A stretch of 64,000 nt of DNA from a virus. Below, piece after piece: positions 4,463 to 57,314 of this stretch. Both the position numbers and the translations under genes were made by a program. The stretch is taken from IMG/VR virus record IMGVR_UViG_3300036770_003984, positions 1 to 64,000 of that record; one strand, given 5' to 3'. The notes beneath the pieces are model-generated. The model saw nothing but the letters and a program-made list of their open reading frames with translations. It was not told the origin of the DNA and searched no databases. How positions within the stretch are numbered: position 1 is the stretch's first letter; every line of letters starts with the position of its first letter.

Positions 4463-4627
4463 TATAGAAGAAAGTTTTTTGTTTTGACTCAAGTCATATT
4501 TTTTTTGGGTTAAGGTCATCTCCAAAATTGATTTTCATCATCGGAAACCGAAGTGTTATAAACTATATATTGTGGTATGAAAAATAATCAAACACAAAAT
4601 ATTTTAAAATTTAAAAAACACTTTATT

Positions 4628-6028
4628 ATGAAAACTTCAATCTTAGTTCAAATCATTTTCTTCTTGTCTTTACAGTTCTCTGTATTTGCACAAATTACTT
4701 CACAATCACTAAACATTAACCCTACTAGAAATTGTCCAACACAAATCGATGGTGACATTATGGGTCAATCACAATTATGTGAGCTTAGTGAATCAACTCC
4801 TATCAAATATGAAGTAAACCCATCTAATAACATAGTTTCATATGTTTGGACAGTACCTCAAGGTATGGCAATATTCAGAGGACAGAATACTAACCAAATT
4901 TTTGTTGATACAGATTACTCATTTATAAATGGTTATGTTACAGTAAAAGGTATCAACACTTGTGGACAATATACTCAAACAGATTCATTCTATGTAGATT
5001 TGTTACCATCAACACCCATATTTCAAACATCTACTGATATGGTTAGAGCTGACCAAATTTACACATATTCTGTAAACCAATTGAATGGAGTTACTTATAC
5101 TTGGACAGCACCTTATGGTTCAGTAATTATGAGTGGTCAAGGTACTGAAACTGTATCAGTTAAGTTTAGCCAAAGTTTCAATGGTGGATTTGTGGAAGTA
5201 TATGGTGAAAATGGTTGTGGTGTTAGTCAACTCAATCAAATTAATGTAACACTTGACAATGGTTCAAACACACAAAGAATTTTATCTCAAACAGATAGAA
5301 ACTACAATAACTCTAAAACTACTTTGGCTGGTGATATTGCATTCCATTCAAACCTAACAAACGCACAATTTAGTGATACTATTAAAAATGGTGATGTTTA
5401 TTACTTTGAAGTTGTTCTTCAAAACTATTCTCAAAACCCAATGGATAGTGTTTATCTAAAATATTTCCTTAGCTCTGACCCAAACAACTATCAATTAGTT
5501 AGAATCAAACGTCTTGAAGCTGGTGAAGAATATACACTACCTGTATTAACAATCCCAACTGATGGATTAAATGGTGACGAAGAATTATCTTTGGAATTAA
5601 ATCCTGACCAAGAAAAACCTGAAACAGATTATACAAATAACTTTTTGAAAGTTCCGTTCTATGTTCAACTTACAACAACAATGGTAACTAAATTTATAAC
5701 AGATAATAGTGTTAATACTTATAATTACCCAAATCCAGTTGTTGACCATACTCAATTCTATGTTAAACTAGGTTCAAACTTTAGCAAAACTGAAAGTGTA
5801 TTAATTAACATCTTTGATTTGAGTGGACAATTTGTTAAAAGAATTACAATTAACAATTCAAATGACCAAGGTGAATTTATCTCTGAAGTTTGGAATGGTG
5901 AAAATGAAAATGGTAATACTTTAGAAAGTGGTGTTTATTTCTACACAATTAACGCAGTTAACAATCAAGGAAATCTTAAAACGTTTGCATCAAATAAACA
6001 CATTAAAATTGTAAAATTGAAGTCTTAA
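4628..6028 (+). CDS. secreted protein with PKD-like/Ig domains and T9SS type A C-terminal sorting domain
   Basis: Likely start is MKTSILVQIIFFLSLQFSVFA|Q (signal peptide plus Gln) rather than 4577. Has PKD-like repeats (TYTWTAPYG...SGQGT...ENGCG), a CARDB-like LELNPDQEKPETDYTNN segment, and a CTD (NYPNPVVD...IFDLSGQFVK...LESGVYFYTI...KIVKLK). Confidence 0.85.
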   Translation: MKTSILVQIIFFLSLQFSVFAQITSQSLNINPTRNCPTQIDGDIMGQSQLCELSESTPIKYEVNPSNNIVSYVWTVPQGMAIFRGQNTNQIFVDTDYSFINGYVTVKGINTCGQYTQTDSFYVDLLPSTPIFQTSTDMVRADQIYTYSVNQLNGVTYTWTAPYGSVIMSGQGTETVSVKFSQSFNGGFVEVYGENGCGVSQLNQINVTLDNGSNTQRILSQTDRNYNNSKTTLAGDIAFHSNLTNAQFSDTIKNGDVYYFEVVLQNYSQNPMDSVYLKYFLSSDPNNYQLVRIKRLEAGEEYTLPVLTIPTDGLNGDEELSLELNPDQEKPETDYTNNFLKVPFYVQLTTTMVTKFITDNSVNTYNYPNPVVDHTQFYVKLGSNFSKTESVLINIFDLSGQFVKRITINNSNDQGEFISEVWNGENENGNTLESGVYFYTINAVNNQGNLKTFASNKHIKIVKLKS

Positions 6029-6048
6029 TAAAAGTTTATTATCAAATT

Positions 6049-6078
6049 AAAATCCTCACATTATTGTGGGGATTTTTT
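6049..6078 (+). terminator. intrinsic terminator
   Basis: aaaatcctcaca-ttat-tgtggggatttt followed by a T-run. Confidence 0.8.
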
Positions 6079-6141
6079 TATTAAAATATATTTCCTTTTG
6101 ATAAAACTGATGTTGGGTATATTTATTATAAAAAGAATAAT

Positions 6142-7047
6142 ATGAACGAACAACTAATAAAAAAAATAATTGCAGAATATAAAAATGGGGTAGGTTCTAC
6201 TACCATTTCTAAAAAACTACGAGTACCTAAAGAAAAAGTTTTAAAAATATTAAAAGAACAAAATCTTACAAGAAAAAGAGATAGATGTTCAAAACTATCT
6301 ATCATACAAGAAAATGAAACTTTTAAAATAGAAAAAAAATGTCCGATGTGTGGTAATATTAGTTTCATCACAACTAAAAATAAAACTACAGCATGTAGAA
6401 ATTATTACAATACTATAAATAAAAAATCAAATTGCAAAAAATGTAGTTTAATTTTACAACAAGGAGAAGGTAATCCTTTCTTTGGGAAAAAACATACAGA
6501 ACAAACAAAAAGTAATATTTCACAAAGTAGAAAAGGAAAGGGTATAGGTTTAGATAACTCTATGTCTAAAATTGAACACAGAAAAAAACTTTCGGAGTCA
6601 TTAAAGAAAAGTTGGAAAAGTGGTAAACTTGAAGAAACAAGAAAAAAAATGTCTGAGGTATTAAAAAAGACGAGAAGACAAGGTAAAATAAAATCAGTTA
6701 TTAAGTCAAAAAAAGAAAATGAGATTTGTAATATAATTAAAAAATTGGGATATGTTGTTATCTCCTCGTTGAGAGTTGATACTAAAATCTGTGATATCTA
6801 TATTCCAAAACTTAATTTAATTATTGAATACTTTGGTGATTATTGGCATTGTAACCCAATTAAATATGATACCGATTATGTTAATGTTAAAAAAAATCTA
6901 ACAGCTAAAGAAATTTGGAAATATGATGAATCCAAACTTGAATTAATAAAAAGTTATGGTTATAATTTAGAGGTAATTTGGGAAAGTGAACTCAAATTAA
7001 ATAACGATAAATTATTAACTATAATTAAAAAATATGATTCAAAATGA
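6142..7047 (+). CDS. free-standing homing endonuclease (HTH, Zn finger, NUMOD3, Vsr/EDxHD-like nuclease)
   Basis: CPMCG and CKKC Cys pairs; NUMOD3 GNPFFGKKHTEQTKSNISQSRKGK; C-terminal CDIYIPKLNLIIEYFGDYWHC nuclease motif. Confidence 0.8.
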   Translation: MNEQLIKKIIAEYKNGVGSTTISKKLRVPKEKVLKILKEQNLTRKRDRCSKLSIIQENETFKIEKKCPMCGNISFITTKNKTTACRNYYNTINKKSNCKKCSLILQQGEGNPFFGKKHTEQTKSNISQSRKGKGIGLDNSMSKIEHRKKLSESLKKSWKSGKLEETRKKMSEVLKKTRRQGKIKSVIKSKKENEICNIIKKLGYVVISSLRVDTKICDIYIPKLNLIIEYFGDYWHCNPIKYDTDYVNVKKNLTAKEIWKYDESKLELIKSYGYNLEVIWESELKLNNDKLLTIIKKYDSK

Positions 7048-8290
7048 TAATCAACCCCGGTTGGATCACAGAGAAAGAATAAGAGTACTTGTTCTGCCCT
7101 CGGATACGACTGGGGTTGGCTGAGGTAAATTCCGAAGTGTAGACCCCCATGTAATGTTACAGAATATGTACCCAACTGATTTTCATGTGGATATAAATTA
7201 TAACCCACCAATGGATGATATTAATTTTTGGAAACAATATCAGATAGTACACGCTCATAGAAGTATTGGTCAAAATTATAATGTTGTGCCTGATTTTATT
7301 AAAAAATTAAAATCGGAAGGAATTGTAGTAATTGTTGATTTGGATGATTATTGGTTGCCTGGTATTGAACACCCAATACACTCATTGATTGTTCAAGACA
7401 AGATACATGAGAAGATTATGGCTAACTTAAAAGTGGCTAGTTACGTTACTACAACAACAAGTATCTTTGCGGATGAGATAAGAAAATTAAATAGAAATGT
7501 TGTTATTTTCCCAAATGCTATAAATCCAGATGAACCACAATTTAAAGAACCAAACGAAAGTTCTGATAGAATCCGTATTGGTTGGTTAGGTGGGTCTTCA
7601 CATCTTCACGATTTAAAATTACTACAAGGATTTGTTCAAAAAAATATAAATCTTAAAGATAAAGTTCAATATGTTCTATGTGGATTTGATACAAGAGGTT
7701 CGGTAACTGAAATCAACCAAACGACTGGAGAAAGAAAACAAAGACCAATTAGACCAAAGGAAACTGTTTGGGCTCGTTATGAGGAAATATTTACATCAAA
7801 CTACCAAATTGTTGACCCAACTTATAAAAACTTTTTAATGGAGTTTAAAGAAGGTGAATATGAAAATATATCATCACAATCATATAGACGTGTTTGGACA
7901 AAACATATTAATACTTATGCCACAAATTATTCCAAGTTTGACATTTCAATGGCACCAATTAAAAACCATATTTTTAATAGGGTTAAATCACAATTGAAAG
8001 TCATTGAGGCAGGATTTTATAAAAAAGCTTTAATTGCTTCTGAAGTAGGTCCTTATACTATTGACTTGAAACATTCGTTAGAATTTGGTAAATTTGTTGA
8101 TGGTAATGCTTTGTTGGTTAAAGAAGAAAGAAATCATAGTGATTGGGCAAAATATATTAAGACTTTAGTTCATAATCCCAATTTAATTACCGACCTTGGG
8201 GAAAGATTGTATGAGAGTGTTAAAGACAAGTATGATTTAAGAAACGTAACCAAGACTAGAGCTGAATGGTACAAAACATTAATAAAATAA
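7034..8290 (+). CDS. GT-B glycosyltransferase interrupted by an in-frame TGA at 7121-7123 (probable recoding site)
   Basis: The frame of ORF 7154-8290 continues upstream to ATG 7034: MIQNDNQPRLDHRERIRVLVLPSDTTGVG*GKFRSVDPHVMLQNM. The downstream part has GT motifs (VDLDDYW, IGWLGGSSH, FNRVKSQLKVIEAG). Confidence 0.7.
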
Positions 8291-8294
8291 AATT

Positions 8295-9005
8295 ATGATT
8301 AAACAACCAATAACCAAGATTCTTTTTATGGACATTGAAACCGTTGGGTGTTGTCCAGATTATGATGTGTGTTCAACATTGAACCCATCTGTTGCCGCCC
8401 AATTTGACAAGTATTTTGATTGGTTTTTAAAAAGATTTCCTGAAGACTCTCATATTCAATACGACAAAAAAAATGATGTCTTTAGAACAAGAACTGGACT
8501 TGTACCTGAGTTTGCTAAAATTATCTGTATAAGTTTTGCATTTGTATTGGATGATGGGTCAGTTAGAAAACAAACATTTTTTGGTGATGACGAACATAAA
8601 CTTTTGTTAGATGTTCAAAAATTATTAATTAAATGTGGAAAACTTGATTTTTGGTTGTGTGGTCATAATCTTAAAAATTTTGATATCCCAATGTTGGCAA
8701 AACGTATGATTATCAATGGTTTAATGCCACCATCAATATTACCTTCTTATGATACCAAACCTTGGGAAATAAAAGCCATTGACACCAAAGAAATTTGGCA
8801 ATATGGTGCTTATACCTCAATAGGTTCTTTGGATTTGTTGTGTTCAAATATTGGAGTCGAAACACCAAAGAATGGTGAAGTAATTGGTCAGAATGTTCAT
8901 AATGAATATTGGGAAAAACAAAACTTAGAAGGAATAAAAGAGTATTGTGAAAAAGATGTAAATGTATTAATAGAAATAATTAAAAAATTAAAGGATTTGA
9001 AATGA
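8295..9005 (+). CDS. PolB-related 3'-5' exonuclease (DEDD)
   Basis: FMDIET (ExoI), GHNLKNFDIP (ExoII), EYCEKDV (ExoIII). Confidence 0.85.
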   Translation: MIKQPITKILFMDIETVGCCPDYDVCSTLNPSVAAQFDKYFDWFLKRFPEDSHIQYDKKNDVFRTRTGLVPEFAKIICISFAFVLDDGSVRKQTFFGDDEHKLLLDVQKLLIKCGKLDFWLCGHNLKNFDIPMLAKRMIINGLMPPSILPSYDTKPWEIKAIDTKEIWQYGAYTSIGSLDLLCSNIGVETPKNGEVIGQNVHNEYWEKQNLEGIKEYCEKDVNVLIEIIKKLKDLK

Positions 9006-9598
9006 AAGATTTAATTGGTTTATATGAACAAGCCTTAAAATTACAAGAATATATAGATAGTCAAGAATCTGAAGATATTGACTATGACCAACTCTTCAAA
9101 GAGTTTGGTTTGGATATGAAAGAAATTGAACAGGAAATGATGGAAAATAAAACCAAATTACCACTTAATTATACAAAATTAAATTCTGATGTTATTGACC
9201 CATTTTATAATTATGAAAGTGATTCAGGATTTGATTTATACTCAACAGAAGATATAACAATTAAACCCTTTGGACGTGCCTTAATACCAACTGGATTATC
9301 ATTTGACATTAAAGATGGTTATGAAATACAAGTTAGGTCTAAAAGTGGATTGGCTATTAATCAAGGATTATTTGTTTTAAATTCCCCTGGAACTGTTGAT
9401 AGTGGATATTTGGGAGAAGTTAAAGTTATTCTATTTAACACGAATTCAGAACCATTTACAATAACTAAAGGAATGAAAGTAGCACAAGCTGTTTTATGTC
9501 CTGTTGTTGGGGGTAAATGGGTCGAATTAATAAACACAGAATCTCTACCAAAAAAAGATAGAGGTGATAATGGATTTGGAAGCACAGGAATTATATGA
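9002..9598 (+). CDS. dut: trimeric dUTPase with acidic N-terminal extension
   Basis: SGFDL, RSKSGLA, NSPGTVDSGYLGE, RGDNGFGSTG motifs. Confidence 0.95.
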   Translation: MKDLIGLYEQALKLQEYIDSQESEDIDYDQLFKEFGLDMKEIEQEMMENKTKLPLNYTKLNSDVIDPFYNYESDSGFDLYSTEDITIKPFGRALIPTGLSFDIKDGYEIQVRSKSGLAINQGLFVLNSPGTVDSGYLGEVKVILFNTNSEPFTITKGMKVAQAVLCPVVGGKWVELINTESLPKKDRGDNGFGSTGII

Positions 9599-10689
9599 TA
9601 ACAATAGGATTCTCAACGAGAAATGTTAGTAATGAATTTATTGATTTACTAAAACAAACATCAGGTATATCAAATTGTGAAATAATACCTATTGAAAATA
9701 ATGGAGAATATTCATTAACCGAGGTGTATAATAAAATAATTGAACAATCACAAAATGATATAATTGTTTTATGTCACGATGACATTTATTTTGATACTAA
9801 AAATTGGGGTATTAAAATATTAAATCATTTTAAACGAAATGGTGGTTTTGGTATTTTGGGTATGGCAGGTTCTGTAAGTTTACCTAAATCTGGAATGTGG
9901 TGGGAAGACTTCTCTAAAATGAGAGGTATTGTAAATCACGAACATAATGGAAAAAAATGGGAATCTAAATATTCTGAAAACAAAGGTGATGGTATTGATG
10001 AAGTTGTTTTAGTTGATGGTGTTTTTATAGTAGTTAATAAAGAAAAAATAAAGACAAAATTCAACGAAGACGTAAAAGGATTTCATTTTTATGATGTAGA
10101 CTTCTCATTTAATAATTTTATAAATGGAGTTAAAATTGGGGTAATTTATGATGTTAGAATTACTCATAAATCAATAGGCCAAACTAATGAAAAGTGGGAA
10201 GAAAATAGAAAATTATTTGTCGATAAAAATTCAGATAAATTACCTCAAAAAATAAAATATGATTTGTTTAAAACAAATAAAGTTAAAGTGATGGTATTTG
10301 ATGATAATCTAAAAACCTTTGATAAAATTTATAGATTGTTATCCAAAACAAAATCAAAAATATCTTTTTGTGGGATATTAAAAAACAAAAGTGATATTTT
10401 AAGATTAAATGCTAGTAATACAAATTATTTTACACTTTATGAACCATATGGTTATAAACTTGGTGATGGTAAATGGGGATTAAATGGTATGAATGGATTT
10501 ACTAAATCTCAACCTAATCAATTATATAAAATAAAAGAGTTTGATTATGATTTAGTTCATTGCGTAAATTCTGATATGTTTAATATGATTAAACAAATTT
10601 ACCCTAATACTTTAATTTATTCTGAAAAAAAAGATTTCAAAAGTTCGGAAGAACTATTAAACGAATATCAAAATTTATTAAATGGTTAA
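9595..10689 (+). CDS. GT-A (family 2-like) glycosyltransferase
   Basis: LCHDDIYF, VVLVDGVFIVV, GFHFYDVDFS motifs. Confidence 0.8.
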   Translation: MITIGFSTRNVSNEFIDLLKQTSGISNCEIIPIENNGEYSLTEVYNKIIEQSQNDIIVLCHDDIYFDTKNWGIKILNHFKRNGGFGILGMAGSVSLPKSGMWWEDFSKMRGIVNHEHNGKKWESKYSENKGDGIDEVVLVDGVFIVVNKEKIKTKFNEDVKGFHFYDVDFSFNNFINGVKIGVIYDVRITHKSIGQTNEKWEENRKLFVDKNSDKLPQKIKYDLFKTNKVKVMVFDDNLKTFDKIYRLLSKTKSKISFCGILKNKSDILRLNASNTNYFTLYEPYGYKLGDGKWGLNGMNGFTKSQPNQLYKIKEFDYDLVHCVNSDMFNMIKQIYPNTLIYSEKKDFKSSEELLNEYQNLLNG

Positions 10690-42830: not shown

Positions 42831-44642
42831 TCAATCATCTAAAAGTTTTTTCAGATGTACTTCCATTTCACCCAAATAATTTCTTACTTTTGACAAATCA
42901 ATATAAGAATCATCCTCAGTTAATGAATCACTTTCCAATAGAATATTTAAATTATTTTTATTAATTGATTCTGGTGCTAAACCTGGAGGTGGGGGTGATT
43001 CTTCACCTCCAGGAGGTGGTGGTGGCATTCCTCCACTTTCTTCTCCTCCTCCACCGGGTGGTGGTGGTGCTCCACCTTCAGTTGTACCTGACTTAGTTCC
43101 ATAAAGTTTATCAATATTATCAAATAAACCAGTATGTGTTATAATTGTCGCAGTATTTGTTAATTCAGCACCAACAGCCTTTTCAATCCTTTGTTGTTGT
43201 AAATCAAGTTTAATTTCCTCTTCAGAGAATCCCATAATATGTTTCTTAGCCCATGTAACTGATGTTGGTGAAATACCTTCAATTGCCGTAACACATTCTT
43301 TATAAAGTGCGACTTTCTCTTTCCATATATCAATTTTAAGTAAATCAGCCTGACTTGATGGATTTGTCAAACCTAAAGTGAAGTTACCTAACTCATCTTC
43401 AAAACCTAAAAGGAATAAATGTATAATGGCGATTTTATTTAATTCGGCAACCATACATTTTTGTATTCTATTGATTGTTCTAGCAAATCTTATATCAATC
43501 AAAGAAAGATTTTTACCATCACCAACAGGTTCTTCAAAACCTAAGAATGCTTTAGGTACACGTAGAGCGGTTAATAATTTCTTTTGGATATATTCAATAT
43601 CGGCAATTTCACCTAAATTCGCACCACCAGGTAATGTTTCAATTGGCATAGTTTGAGCTGGGTCTCTAACAGGAATAAAATAATCTTGGTCAACAGCCAT
43701 TTGATTAAATCTCATATCAACATTACCAGTCTGAGAATCAACAACTTGACTACGTTTAAACTTATTTGCAACACGTTGTACATAAGCTTCAACATCTTTA
43801 TCATCCATATTTCCAACAAAGACTTTGAACACCCTTCTTTCTGGTGCTCTTGAAGTTCTATATATCAACATTGCATCCTCAGATAATAATAATTGTTTCC
43901 AAATACGTCTTGCCTTTTCCAACATTGATGTACCATATGGAAGTTTTCTATCATCACCAAATAAACGGAAATGAGCAATTTCCCAAGAATTAAACTCCAT
44001 GTCTTTAACTTTCCATTTGAATCTTAAACCTTTGTTTTCAACGGGGTCTTCAACATTTTGTCTACCAGCTTGCGTAGGAGCACCTCGTTCCAAACGTTCA
44101 ATTTCAATGTTTGGTAGTTGCATACAACCAACAATACCTTTTTCTGGATCAAGTTTAAGGTAAACAAAATTATCACCATACTTACAAGTATTTCTTGTCC
44201 ACATTGGTAAGTTTGTGTTAATATCCAAAATATTATTAAATAAATCAGCTAAAATAGATTTAATCCTTTTTGACTCTGAATATATCTGTAACATATTACC
44301 ATTTTGGTCAACAGTTGTTGATTCCTCACCATAAATGTCTAGTGCTGCAGATATTTCTGGTGTATACTCCATAGATTCGTAATCGTAAAATGAGGCCAAT
44401 CTAGTTGGTTCGTAATATACTGCTTGGGTATATAGATTACTTTCAATTTTAGTCCATTGATTAGCTAAATAATATGTTTGTTGAGCTTGTAATAACTCTT
44501 TATCATATTCTTGTTTGGATGTTGTACGTAATAATTCTTTTCTATCAAACTTATATGTTGGATAGTCTTGATTTAAAAGTTCATTAGGTCCGAAGGCTTG
44601 AGATAATCTTTGCCATACGGTATATTTGTTATTATTTTCCAT
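42831..44642 (-). CDS. portal protein (T4 gp20-like)
   Basis: MEYTPEISAALDIYGEE, LLSEDAMLIYRTSRAPERRVF, QDYFIPVR; Pro/Gly-rich tail. Confidence 0.95.
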   Translation of the reverse strand: MENNNKYTVWQRLSQAFGPNELLNQDYPTYKFDRKELLRTTSKQEYDKELLQAQQTYYLANQWTKIESNLYTQAVYYEPTRLASFYDYESMEYTPEISAALDIYGEESTTVDQNGNMLQIYSESKRIKSILADLFNNILDINTNLPMWTRNTCKYGDNFVYLKLDPEKGIVGCMQLPNIEIERLERGAPTQAGRQNVEDPVENKGLRFKWKVKDMEFNSWEIAHFRLFGDDRKLPYGTSMLEKARRIWKQLLLSEDAMLIYRTSRAPERRVFKVFVGNMDDKDVEAYVQRVANKFKRSQVVDSQTGNVDMRFNQMAVDQDYFIPVRDPAQTMPIETLPGGANLGEIADIEYIQKKLLTALRVPKAFLGFEEPVGDGKNLSLIDIRFARTINRIQKCMVAELNKIAIIHLFLLGFEDELGNFTLGLTNPSSQADLLKIDIWKEKVALYKECVTAIEGISPTSVTWAKKHIMGFSEEEIKLDLQQQRIEKAVGAELTNTATIITHTGLFDNIDKLYGTKSGTTEGGAPPPPGGGGEESGGMPPPPPGGEESPPPPGLAPESINKNNLNILLESDSLTEDDSYIDLSKVRNYLGEMEVHLKKLLDD

Positions 44643-56923: not shown

Positions 56924-57304
56924 GGGGAGTAACTGGTATCGATTGACATTGTTGGTTATTAGGGGCATGTCAGACCTAAACTAAGTCTGTTAAACTGGTT
57001 TGAAACGATAGACGGCAACGTTATCAACAAACTTTCTGCAGTAGGTTTAATCCGTGCTGAAGAAGCAGTAGTAGCCTAGTCAATAGGGTATTACTTTCGA
57101 GTCGGGGTGCATTAACTCAGGAACAGGAGCACTATAGGGTTGTCTAATCAATTCTCATCCCTAAAAATGAATTGACCGATTTTGTTGATTTTGGGTGTAT
57201 AAAAATCAAATAGCTCGGAACATTGCGAATAATGTTGTCCTAAGCATGTAGTCCTTAGTAATTGAGATGGGCAAGAATTGGGTTCGATTCCCAAACTCTC
57301 CACC
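56924..57304 (+). ncRNA. ssrA: tmRNA
   Basis: 5' GGGGAGT pairs with 3' ACTCTCC-A-CC, giving the G3:U70 Ala identity pair; T-arm ttggg-ttcgatt-cccaa; gcatgt segments at both ends; tag ORF 57014-57079 GNVINKLSAVGLIRAEEAVVA*. Confidence 0.92.
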
Positions 57305-57314
57305 TTTAAAAAAG

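What the first reader, a model, noticed from the sequence alone, without database searches (positions are those of the whole stretch)
6120..7150. Homing endonuclease plus recoding element as a mobile cassette (T4 mobA/gene 60 parallel)
Seen: a free-standing NUMOD3/Vsr-like endonuclease with its own TATTTAT motif (6120-6126) overlaps the GT start, directly upstream of the recoded, stop-containing segment. No group I intron exon is evident upstream. Established: in T4, the mobA endonuclease and the gene 60 bypass insertion travel together, and the insertion protects against cleavage. Inference: the 6-nt insertion and synonymous GC-rich recoding destroy this nuclease's own target site, making this an independently evolved endonuclease-plus-bypass cassette.
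Basis: partly seen in the sequence, partly recalled or inferred. Interest (0 to 1): 0.82.

Follow-up and report, generated by a model that had tools for sequence, protein, structure and literature searches.

The report
Homing endonuclease with ribosome-hop cassette
A selfish endonuclease gene in a T4-like freshwater phage travels with a tiny stop-containing insert in the neighbouring glycosyltransferase gene, and comparison of 45 variants indicates that ribosomes hop over the insert, which would be the first natural family of short "stop-hops" and a second, independent counterpart of phage T4 gene 60.

Summary
ORF 6142-7047 is a free-standing NUMOD3 + Vsr/I-Bth0305I-like homing endonuclease (HE). 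Its stop overlaps the start (7034) of a GT-B glycosyltransferase (GT). The GT frame is broken by TGA at 7121-7123, inside a GC-rich patch.

- **The gap.** Relatives without the HE read ...GVGKFRS... uninterrupted. All 45 distinct alleles with this HE type, or a remnant of it, carry a gap exactly there. The gap is 5 to 13 nt, covering every length in that range, and always begins with a stop (TGA, TAA or TAG).
- **Matched codons.** The codons on either side are synonymous in 42 of 45 alleles (Gly/Gly or Ser/Ser).
- **Extension and hairpin.** Every gapped allele also has a 9-13-codon N-terminal extension. With the conserved 5' coding sequence it forms a ~70-nt hairpin ending at the take-off codon: -30 kcal/mol against -8 in ungapped alleles, with covariation.
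- **Selection.** Both sides of the gap are under purifying selection.
- **Inheritance.** The gap follows the HE tree (5 changes), not the GT tree (22 changes).

Readthrough, selenocysteine, a single frameshift type and pseudogenisation do not fit. A peptidyl-tRNA hop does.

Still untested: the protein product, and the idea that the gap shields the locus from the HE. The GC-richness is explained by the hairpin rather than by target-site recoding.

The parts
6049..6076 (+). Intrinsic terminator of the upstream PKD-domain gene (4577-6028); left neighbour of the cassette
   Evidence: 12-bp stem followed by a T run. The terminator is shared by the HE-free allele L003 and the HE-bearing allele L017; the two sequences diverge just after it. 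The upstream protein matches PKD_6, and Por_Secre_tail weakly.
6142..7047 (+). Free-standing homing endonuclease: N-terminal helix-turn-helix, Zn-ribbon (CPxC...CxxC), NUMOD3 / I-TevI-like DNA-binding module, C-terminal Vsr/I-Bth0305I-like PD-(D/E)XK nuclease
   Evidence: Pfam NUMOD3 32.2 bits. 1i3j E 4e-4. Fold match to 3r3p and 1vsr. 13 relatives at 50-90% identity are intact, with invariant D218, E229 and the GDYWHCNP motif.
7034..7120 (+). Glycosyltransferase ORF1: start codon to take-off codon, 29 codons
   Evidence: Translation. The last 15 codons align with the N-terminus of ungapped relatives. dN/dS 0.17.
7037..7075 (+). N-terminal extension (13 codons in place of one Ser codon); supplies the 5' arm of the hairpin
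   Evidence: An extension is present in all 45 gapped alleles. It is absent from all HE-free and sister-group HE alleles.
7051..7119 (+). Long imperfect mRNA hairpin whose 3' arm ends inside the take-off codon
   Evidence: -34.3 kcal/mol. Covariance model R1 hits 7046-7120. Covariation is shown. Gapped alleles average -29.9 kcal/mol and ungapped alleles -8.2, with no overlap. Apart from a Pro/Gly-linker artefact, it is the only such structure in the 128-kb genome.
7118..7120 (+). Proposed take-off codon GGC (Gly)
   Evidence: Last sense codon before the stop. It is always Gly or Ser and co-varies with the landing codon.
7121..7123 (+). Coding gap: TGA stop, proposed to sit in the A site at take-off
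   Evidence: The gap begins with a stop in 45 of 45 alleles (TGA 25, TAA 18, TAG 2).
7124..7126 (+). Proposed landing codon GGT (Gly)
   Evidence: In 42 of 45 alleles it is the first triplet of the take-off codon family downstream of take-off, in any frame.
7127..8290 (+). Glycosyltransferase ORF2: resume codon AAA to stop; GT-B / GT4-like fold
   Evidence: Open frame. dN/dS of the first 19 codons is 0.22. The model of an ungapped relative has pLDDT 91 and matches GlgM, MshA, BshA and PimA. PHROG glycosyltransferase 8e-44.

Best explanation
A mobile cassette sits at the 5' end of a phage GT-B glycosyltransferase gene. It has three parts:
1. a free-standing Vsr-like homing endonuclease;
2. a 9-13-codon N-terminal extension of the glycosyltransferase;
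3. a 5-13 nt coding gap (6 nt, TGA GGT, in this window).

**Proposed mechanism (inferred).** The glycosyltransferase is made as one polypeptide by programmed translational bypassing.
- With peptidyl-tRNA-Gly on GGC (7118-7120) in the P site and TGA in the A site, the tRNA lets go.
- The mRNA slips forward.
- The same tRNA re-pairs with the next Gly codon, GGT (7124-7126).
- Decoding resumes at AAA (7127).
- The product has the same ...GVGKFRS... sequence as phages without the cassette.

**Role of the hairpin (inferred).** The extension and the conserved 5' coding region form a long hairpin that ends at the take-off codon. As it re-zips behind the stalled ribosome, it is proposed to pull the mRNA forward and to hide the take-off codon.

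**What is shown and what is not.**
- Shown by comparison: the parts, their strict co-occurrence, and the cassette's movement between glycosyltransferase backgrounds.
- Inferred: the hop itself and the driving role of the hairpin.
- Inferred, at about even odds: that the gap protects the locus from its own endonuclease.
For: **Gap structure.**
- The gap lies at one fixed place, G17|K18, in all 45 distinct gapped alleles. Its lengths are 5, 6, 7, 8, 9, 10, 11, 12 and 13 nt.
- It begins with a stop in 45 of 45 alleles, using all three stop codons.
[quoted passage not shown] Five alleles changed both to Ser AGY.
- In 42 of 45 alleles the landing codon is the first cognate triplet downstream. The gap interior has 1 G in 44 nt.
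- Close relatives differ by frame-changing indels inside the gap while the downstream ORF stays intact. L264 has 11 nt and L265 has 12 nt, with flanks 93% identical.

**Both sides are translated.**
- dN/dS is 0.17 upstream and 0.22 downstream, with dS above 1.
- 22 of 44 alleles have no Met within 19 codons after landing.

**Hairpin.**
- MFE is -29.9±2.9 kcal/mol (n=44) in gapped alleles against -8.2±2.6 (n=60) in ungapped ones, with no overlap. Synonymous resampling gives z of -4.4 to -9.4.
- 83% of cells are paired against 30-45% in slid controls. 17 of 22 pairs show double changes, and 0 of 500 shuffles reach the observed values.
- The stem ends -2 to +1 nt from the take-off codon in all alleles.

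**Cassette behaviour.**
- The gap always occurs with the extension and with an HE or HE remnant. No HE-free locus (0 of 53) has it.
- The gap needs 22 changes on the GT tree and 5 on the HE tree.
- The recombination edge lies 15-45 nt 3' of the gap.

**Other support.**
- No suppressor tRNA is among the genome's 24 tRNAs, and TGA ends 20 of 79 long ORFs.
- The gap is present in independent DNA runs and in two contigs from RNA libraries.
- The gap sits at the N-cap of helix α1 after the Gly loop of a GT4-like fold, where extra residues would be expected to be harmful.
- The 5' stem-loop and pairing of exiting mRNA as a forward driver are documented for gene 60 (10.1101/2024.12.09.627546). Synthetic 'stop-hops' are known (PMC5009743).
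Against: - No protein or ribosome data exist. Everything is comparative.
- Three alleles (L281, L171, L182) have only 2-of-3 matching take-off and landing codons.
- Gene-60 hallmarks are missing: there is no room for a take-off or A-site stem-loop in the gap, and there is no consistent mini-SD.
- A nascent-peptide signal cannot be separated from the RNA constraint on the extension.
- The structural alignment used for the covariation test was fitted to the model and includes a few off-target rows.
- For target-site protection: two loci (L163, L167) have this HE type and the extension but no gap, and a sister HE group (51 loci) persists with an uninterrupted GT.
- The contigs from RNA libraries could derive from carried-over DNA.
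Confidence: 0.74

Rival explanations
1. Mixed conventional recoding. The stop is read through where the gap is a multiple of 3. Ribosomes shift +1 or +2 where it is not. Each allele then makes a glycosyltransferase with 1-4 extra residues in the Gly loop.
For: In every allele some frame is open across the gap interior after the stop. For example, GGC [T] GAA TTT AAA GGA is open in the 13-nt gap. Stops are known +1 shift sites.
Against: - It needs three different mechanisms within one homologous element.
- It does not explain why the last gap codon always matches the take-off codon family, including five Ser/Ser alleles, nor why it is the first such triplet downstream.
- Close relatives change gap length and frame.
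- All three stop codons are used and there is no suppressor tRNA.
- The inserted residues would sit at the helix N-cap of the conserved Gly loop.
Confidence: 0.1
2. Fractured or split gene. Translation ends at the stop. The remainder is made separately by re-initiation, and the 29-residue peptide and the large fragment assemble, or the peptide is dispensable.
For: Homing endonucleases do split genes whose halves reassemble (MobA/Topo2L and MobE/nrdA, discussed in 10.1101/2022.08.31.505936). The window has an in-frame ATG at 7154.
Against: - 22 of 44 alleles have no in-frame Met within 19 codons after the gap.
- The codons between the gap and any Met are under purifying selection (dN/dS 0.22).
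- No start codon abuts the gap.
- The matched flanking codons and the hairpin would have no role.
Confidence: 0.06
3. The glycosyltransferase is inactivated by invasion of the endonuclease, and the stop marks a pseudogene.
For: There is an in-frame stop 29 codons into the gene. Homing endonucleases can damage host genes.
Against: - 40 distinct gapped alleles keep an intact frame of 330 aa or more downstream, across GT divergence down to about 40% identity.
- Purifying selection acts on both sides of the gap.
- The stop is kept as a stop while its identity changes.
- The gap persists with an intact GT after the HE has decayed (L024, L046, L185, L321).
Confidence: 0.04
4. The gap is removed from the RNA by editing or splicing, or is an assembly or population artefact.
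For: None specific. This possibility was raised historically for gene 60.
Against: - The same gap appears in many independent metagenomes.
- DNA runs X3 and X4 and RNA-library contigs from X15 and X16 span 7121-7126 with no deletion or joint.
- A 5-13 nt segment has no known splicing mechanism.
Confidence: 0.02

Closest known systems
Phage T4 gene 60 / mobA bypass cassette (Huang 1988; Bonocora 2011, from my own knowledge; Manning & Atkins 2022, 10.1101/2022.08.31.505936)
   Same: - A homing endonuclease and a coding gap in the adjacent essential-motif coding sequence move as one element.
- Take-off is on Gly with a stop in the A site, and the landing codon is matched.
- An N-terminal extension is added by the element.
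- There is a 5' stem-loop.
- The endonuclease decays while the bypass is kept.
- The host phage is T4-like (gp20-type portal).
   Different: - The target gene differs: a GT-B glycosyltransferase, not topoisomerase Topo2L.
- The nuclease family differs: Vsr/I-Bth0305I-like, not HNH MobA.
- The gap is 5-13 nt, not about 50 nt.
- There is no take-off or A-site stem-loop and no consistent mini-SD.
- The hairpin is much longer and abuts the take-off codon, rather than ending 9 nt 5' of it.
- The gene is not split into two ORFs on either side of the nuclease.
- There is no sequence homology, so this is an analogue and not a member.
Synthetic 'stop-hops' in E. coli (Weiss et al. 1987, as reviewed in PMC5009743)
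   Same: Matched codons flank a stop, so that 9 nt specify one amino acid. This is exactly the layout of the 6-nt class (GGC TGA GGT). The +5 and +6 distances match.
   Different: Those hops were low-level events in artificial constructs with no stimulator. Here the layout is natural, conserved, under selection, and coupled to a dedicated hairpin. The review states that no natural in-frame stop hop was known.
Mitochondrial 'byp' elements of Magnusiomyces (Lang 2014 and Nosek 2015, cited in PMC5009743)
   Same: Short mobile inserts in coding sequence are skipped by ribosomes. They have matched or near-matched take-off and landing codons and an A/U-rich interior.
   Different: The byps are 27-55 nt, number in the dozens per genome, are not linked to an endonuclease, and use the mitochondrial translation system.
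I-Bth0305I / Vsr-like (EDxHD) homing endonucleases, and free-standing Seg/Mob endonucleases of T4-like phages
   Same: The catalytic fold matches. A modular DNA-binding region with NUMOD3 is present. The gene sits between conserved genes, has a patchy distribution, and shows co-conversion of flanks.
   Different: I-Bth0305I is intron-encoded, whereas this enzyme is free-standing and overlaps its target gene's start. Its cleavage site is unknown.

Membership tests
Programmed translational bypassing (functional class) | Take-off and landing codons readable by one tRNA | tested here: met
   42 of 45 distinct alleles are synonymous (37 Gly/Gly, 5 Ser AGY/AGY). The other 3 match at 2 of 3 positions.
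Programmed translational bypassing (functional class) | Slow-to-decode A-site codon directly 3' of the take-off codon | tested here: met
   A stop codon is present in 45 of 45 alleles: TGA 25, TAA 18, TAG 2.
Programmed translational bypassing (functional class) | The gap is not decoded; the conserved protein resumes right after the landing codon in whatever frame | tested here: met
   Gaps cover every length from 5 to 13 nt, including lengths that are not multiples of 3. KFRS/YFRS resumes directly after landing. Close relatives differ by frame-changing indels in the gap.
Programmed translational bypassing (functional class) | A single polypeptide spanning the gap is demonstrated | not testable with these tools
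   This needs mass spectrometry or a reporter assay. The only indirect support is purifying selection on both sides.
Gene 60-type cassette (T4 mobA/gene 60 family) | Inserted in the Toprim domain of Topo2L with a MobA (HNH) endonuclease; homologous bypass sequence | tested here: not met
   The host gene has a GT-B/GT4 fold. The nuclease is Vsr-like. The defining features are as described in 10.1101/2022.08.31.505936.
Gene 60-type cassette (T4 mobA/gene 60 family) | Take-off (A-site) stem-loop within the gap and a mini-SD 6 nt 5' of the landing codon | tested here: not met
   The gap is only 5-13 nt and G-poor. GAGG occurs only in the TGA GGT subclass.
Gene 60-type cassette (T4 mobA/gene 60 family) | 5' stem-loop formed by mRNA leaving the ribosome | tested here: met
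   A conserved hairpin with covariation is present in all gapped alleles and absent from ungapped ones.
Gene 60-type cassette (T4 mobA/gene 60 family) | Nascent-peptide signal in the N-terminal extension | tested here: inconclusive
   The extension is always present with a P-x-N-G-R-like motif. However, its codons are constrained by pairing with the 3' arm, so selection at the peptide level cannot be separated from the RNA constraint.
Vsr-like / I-Bth0305I-type PD-(D/E)XK homing endonuclease | Vsr-like catalytic fold with conserved acidic residues | tested here: met
   Foldseek: 3r3p at E 9e-4, TM 0.71, 23% identity; 1vsr at E 8e-3. D218 and E229 are invariant in 13 relatives. Pfam MTES_1575 reaches only E 0.01, below its cut-off.
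Vsr-like / I-Bth0305I-type PD-(D/E)XK homing endonuclease | Mobility: patchy distribution at one genomic site, incongruent with the host gene | tested here: met
   At least 14 forced changes on the GT tree. HE remnants occur in HE-free alleles. A recombination edge is visible.
Vsr-like / I-Bth0305I-type PD-(D/E)XK homing endonuclease | Site-specific cleavage of the HE-free allele and immunity of the HE-bearing allele | not testable with these tools
   This requires purified enzyme and both substrates.
GT-B (GT4-like) glycosyltransferase | Two Rossmann-like domains; β1 - Gly loop - α1 at the N-terminus | tested here: met
   The model has pLDDT 91, with β1 at residues 4-9 and α1 from residue 16. 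Foldseek matches GlgM, MshA, BshA, PglA and PimA at E 1e-12 to 1e-9. Pfam Glyco_trans_1_4 is below its cut-off.

The most novel reading that the evidence does not exclude
This is a natural, widespread and evolvable minimal bypass module. It consists of a stop codon, a matched landing codon 5-13 nt downstream, and one long 5' hairpin that zips up to and over the take-off codon. With no A-site stem-loop and no SD, these three parts are enough to make ribosomes hop efficiently. The module arose independently of gene 60 as the immunity half of a homing-endonuclease cassette, so short stop-hops may be hidden in other 'interrupted' phage genes.
Probability: 0.55. Interest if true: 0.93.

Novelty: new variant of a known kind. 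Interest (0 to 1): 0.88.

Why it matters
Programmed translational bypassing in phages has rested on a single family. In 2022 the gene 60 cassette was still described as unique (10.1101/2022.08.31.505936). A 2016 review states that no natural in-frame stop hop is known (PMC5009743).

This locus offers 45 natural variants of a much simpler element. They cover every gap length from 5 to 13 nt, all three stop codons, and two take-off codon families. All share a covarying hairpin that abuts the take-off codon.

That is a ready-made mutational series for testing whether pairing of mRNA leaving the ribosome can drive forward slippage, which is the current open question for gene 60. It also shows a second, independent coupling of a selfish nuclease with a recoding signal. 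Such 'interrupted' genes should therefore not be annotated as pseudogenes in phage metagenomes.

Tried and rejected
- **Rfam.** A scan of 5900-7400 found no intron, riboswitch or known frameshift element. The only hits were sub-threshold leader-peptide matches to the terminator.
- **GenBank phages.** No DNA match.
- **Alternative genetic code.** TGA as a sense codon was rejected because TGA ends 20 of 79 long ORFs, and because the stop is TAA or TAG in other alleles.
- **Suppressor tRNA or selenocysteine.** Rejected: there are 24 tRNAs and none is a suppressor, and the stop identity varies.
- **TATTTAT as a recurring promoter motif.** Not above chance.
- **RNAalifold on a plain MAFFT alignment.** It recovered only 6 pairs because the 5' arm shifts register between groups. 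A covariance-model alignment was needed.
- **A second strong 'structure' at 42952-43086.** It is a Pro/Gly-rich linker of the portal protein, not a recoding site.
- **Blanket synonymous GC recoding downstream of the gap.** Not found. GAC CCC after the landing site also occurs in ungapped alleles.
- **Earlier scan notes.** None exist for this genome.
- **Contig depth.** Depth from Logan contigs cannot be used for expression. Parts of the stretch without cover in X3, X15 and X16 say nothing.
Full report
**What is in the window**

The window is the first 64 kb of a 128.5-kb virus contig with 28% GC. The contig carries a T4-type portal gene, 24 tRNA genes and a tmRNA gene.

A terminator at 6049-6076 closes a PKD-domain gene. 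After it, ORF 6142-7047 encodes a 301-aa protein. The evidence for its identity is:
- Pfam NUMOD3 at 32.2 bits, above the cut-off;
- a match to the I-TevI DNA-binding domain;
- a modelled C-terminal domain that superposes on the I-Bth0305I catalytic domain and on Vsr.

No intron or other Rfam family matches the region.

Its stop overlaps ATG 7034. The frame opened there reads 29 codons, meets TGA at 7121-7123, and then stays open to 8290. GC rises to 48-55% over 7060-7150. The TATTTAT motif exists but is not above chance.

**Comparison with relatives**

Four scans were run: two with the glycosyltransferase (GT) and HE proteins, and two with an HE alignment. Together they returned 320 loci from virus and metagenome contigs. 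Taking in the window as well, they yielded 105 distinct alleles of the GT 5' end.

- Sixty alleles read M-S-K-I-K-V-L-V-L-P-S-D-x-x-G-V-G-K-F-R-S without interruption and are AT-rich.
- Forty-five alleles, including the window, carry a 9-13-codon N-terminal extension and an insertion between GV(G/S) and (K/Y)FRS.
- The insertion is 6 nt in the window (TGA GGT). Elsewhere it is 5, 7, 8, 9, 10, 11, 12 or 13 nt.
- It always starts with a stop: TGA 25, TAA 18, TAG 2.
- In the 5-nt forms the stop overlaps the following codon (GGT TA GGT; AGC TG AGC).
- The codon before the insertion and the codon before the resumed KFRS are synonymous in 42 of 45 alleles. Five alleles changed both to Ser AGY. The three exceptions match at two of three positions.
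- In those 42 alleles the second codon is the first triplet of that family downstream, in any frame. The gap interior contains 1 G in 44 nt.
- Close relatives differ by frame-changing indels within the gap. L264 has 11 nt and L265 has 12 nt, with flanks 93% identical. L247 has 6 nt and L279 has 5 nt.

**What this excludes**

- Gaps that are not multiples of three rule out readthrough.
- Three different stops, the normal use of TGA as a stop and the absence of a suppressor tRNA rule out a codon reassignment, selenocysteine or suppression.
- No single frameshift direction fits all gap lengths.
- A pseudogene does not fit. Forty gapped alleles keep an intact downstream frame of 330 aa or more. 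dN/dS is 0.17 for the 15 codons before the gap and 0.22 for the 19 after it, with dS above 1.
- Re-initiation does not fit. Half of the alleles have no Met within 19 codons after the gap.
- The insertion is not an assembly error. Independent DNA runs and two contigs from metatranscriptome libraries cover it without a deletion. The RNA-library result is weak because DNA carry-over is possible.

One mechanism accounts for every allele: peptidyl-tRNA detaches from the last sense codon and re-pairs at the next cognate codon, that is, translational bypassing. It returns exactly the uninterrupted protein sequence.

**The hairpin**

- In every gapped allele the extension pairs with the conserved coding sequence for ...IRVLVLPSDxxGV... 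to give a ~70-nt imperfect hairpin.
- The 72 nt before the gap fold at -29.9±2.9 kcal/mol (n=44), against -8.2±2.6 (n=60) in ungapped alleles. The two distributions do not overlap.
- Resampling synonymous codons with the genome's codon usage gives z of -4.4 to -9.4.
- A covariance model built from eight alleles finds all the others. On that alignment:
  - 83% of cells pair, against 30-45% when partners are slid;
  - 17 of 22 pairs show changes on both sides;
  - none of 500 shuffles reaches the observed values;
  - the basal helix is 91% paired, with five pair types at one position.
- Caveat: the alignment was fitted to the model and holds a few off-target rows.
- The Gly codon two codons before take-off is GGG or GGC in 100% of gapped alleles and 11% of ungapped ones. 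It changes together with CCC, GCC or TCC in the 5' arm.
- The stem ends -2 to +1 nt from the take-off codon in all alleles.
- The hairpin is the only comparably stable 72-nt window in the 128-kb genome, apart from a Pro/Gly-rich linker in the portal gene.
- Two loci (L163, L167) carry the extension but no gap. Only L163 was folded (-12 kcal/mol); its 5' arm has decayed, and both loci are AT-rich there.

The GC-rich patch is therefore chiefly the two arms of a structure tied to the gap.

For gene 60, a 5' stem-loop and pairing of mRNA leaving the ribosome have been proposed to drive forward movement (10.1101/2024.12.09.627546). By analogy I infer the following for this locus:
- the apical part of the hairpin has already re-formed behind a ribosome stalled at the stop;
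- zipping of the GC-rich basal stem pulls the mRNA forward;
- the closed stem then sequesters the take-off codon.

**The cassette**

- Across loci, the gap always occurs with the extension and with an HE (73 loci) or an HE remnant (9 loci). It never occurs in 53 HE-free loci. It never occurs in 51 loci where a sister HE group overlaps the normal GT start.
- The unbiased GT-based scan gives the gap in 8 of 80 loci.
- On the GT tree the gapped state needs 22 changes, at least 14 of them forced by well-supported branches. On the HE tree it needs 5.
- One pair shows the recombination edge directly:
  - L017 (gapped; HE 90% identical to the window's) is 95-100% identical to HE-free L003 from 15-45 nt past the gap onward, but only 67-80% identical in the 45 nt before it;
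  - L017 is 83-90% identical to the window around the gap and 57-78% further into the gene.
- The cassette therefore ends just 3' of the gap. This is where a double-strand break and a short co-conversion tract would be expected if the nuclease cuts near GVG|KFRS.
- HE-free alleles L002, L003 and L018 keep a 31-nt remnant of the HE 3' end; it is 100% identical in L002 and L003. This shows the usual cycle of invasion, decay and loss.

**Where the gap sits in the protein**

A model of an ungapped relative (pLDDT 91) has a GT-B, GT4-like fold, matching GlgM, MshA, BshA and PimA. The gap falls between the Gly loop after β1 and the first turn of α1. S11, D12, G15, V16 and R20 are invariant. An insertion would be expected to be costly there, and a homing endonuclease would find a conserved target.

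**What remains inference**

- The hop itself and its efficiency.
- The driving role of the hairpin.
- Any nascent-peptide contribution.
- Above all, whether the gap protects against the nuclease. The HE persists without a gap in L163, L167 and the sister HE group, so protection can be achieved in other ways, or the nucleases differ in target.

**Comparison with the literature**

Searches of the held library found no description of this element.
- Manning and Atkins (10.1101/2022.08.31.505936) found gene-60-type cassettes only in Topo2L and call the cassette unique.
- Atkins et al. (PMC5009743) note that synthetic stop-hops exist but that no natural in-frame stop hop is known.

This element works like gene 60. 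It is not a member of that family, because the target gene, the nuclease family, the gap length and the stimulators all differ.

Noticed in passing
window 56924-57305 (+): The phage contig encodes a full-length tmRNA. Rfam RF00023 scores 87 bits against a gathering score of 47. ARAGORN gives the tag peptide GNVINKLSAVGLIRAEEAVVA.
   Followed up: partly
genome G000:C1 66331-82127 (beyond the window): A cluster of 24 tRNA genes on the minus strand includes Gly(TCC) and Ser(GCT), the two take-off codon families. There is no suppressor tRNA. Whether the phage tRNA-Gly(UCC) reads the GGC/GGT take-off codons is unknown.
   Followed up: partly
window 42952-43086 (gene 42831-44642, minus strand): This is the only other very stable 72-nt fold in the genome (-36 kcal/mol). 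It is a Pro/Gly-rich linker (…GGAPPPPGGGGEE…PPPPPGG…) near the C-terminus of a T4 gp20-type portal protein. It is a CCN/GGN codon artefact, not a recoding site.
   Followed up: yes
L005-L014, L043/L097, L059/L060, L273-L275, L282-L309: A sister group of the same endonuclease family (39-49% identity, about 250 aa) sits at the same place. Its stop overlaps the normal GT start (…AAAAAATATGTCAAAAAT…). It has no N-terminal extension, hairpin or gap. How these loci avoid self-cleavage is unknown.
   Followed up: partly
L163:2393-2490 and L167:2387-2490: Two loci have an intact endonuclease (57% and 51% identity) and an N-terminal extension of the GT but no gap. In L163 the Gly codon is replaced by Ser TCA and the hairpin arms have decayed to AT-rich sequence (-12 kcal/mol; L167 was not folded). 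These may be a loss, or a pre-gap stage.
   Followed up: partly
L002/L003:3873-3903, L018: [quoted passage not shown] In L002 and L003 it is 100% identical to the window's sequence. This is a footprint of an earlier invasion and deletion.
   Followed up: yes
window 4577-6028 (+): The gene upstream of the cassette encodes a secreted-looking protein with two PKD-like domains. It has a weak, below-cut-off match to the type IX secretion C-terminal sorting domain. This hints at a Bacteroidota host.
   Followed up: no
window 8295-10689 (+): Downstream of the GT lie a PolB-exonuclease-like 3'-5' exonuclease, a dUTPase and a second (GT2-like) glycosyltransferase. The substrate of either glycosyltransferase is unknown.
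   Followed up: no
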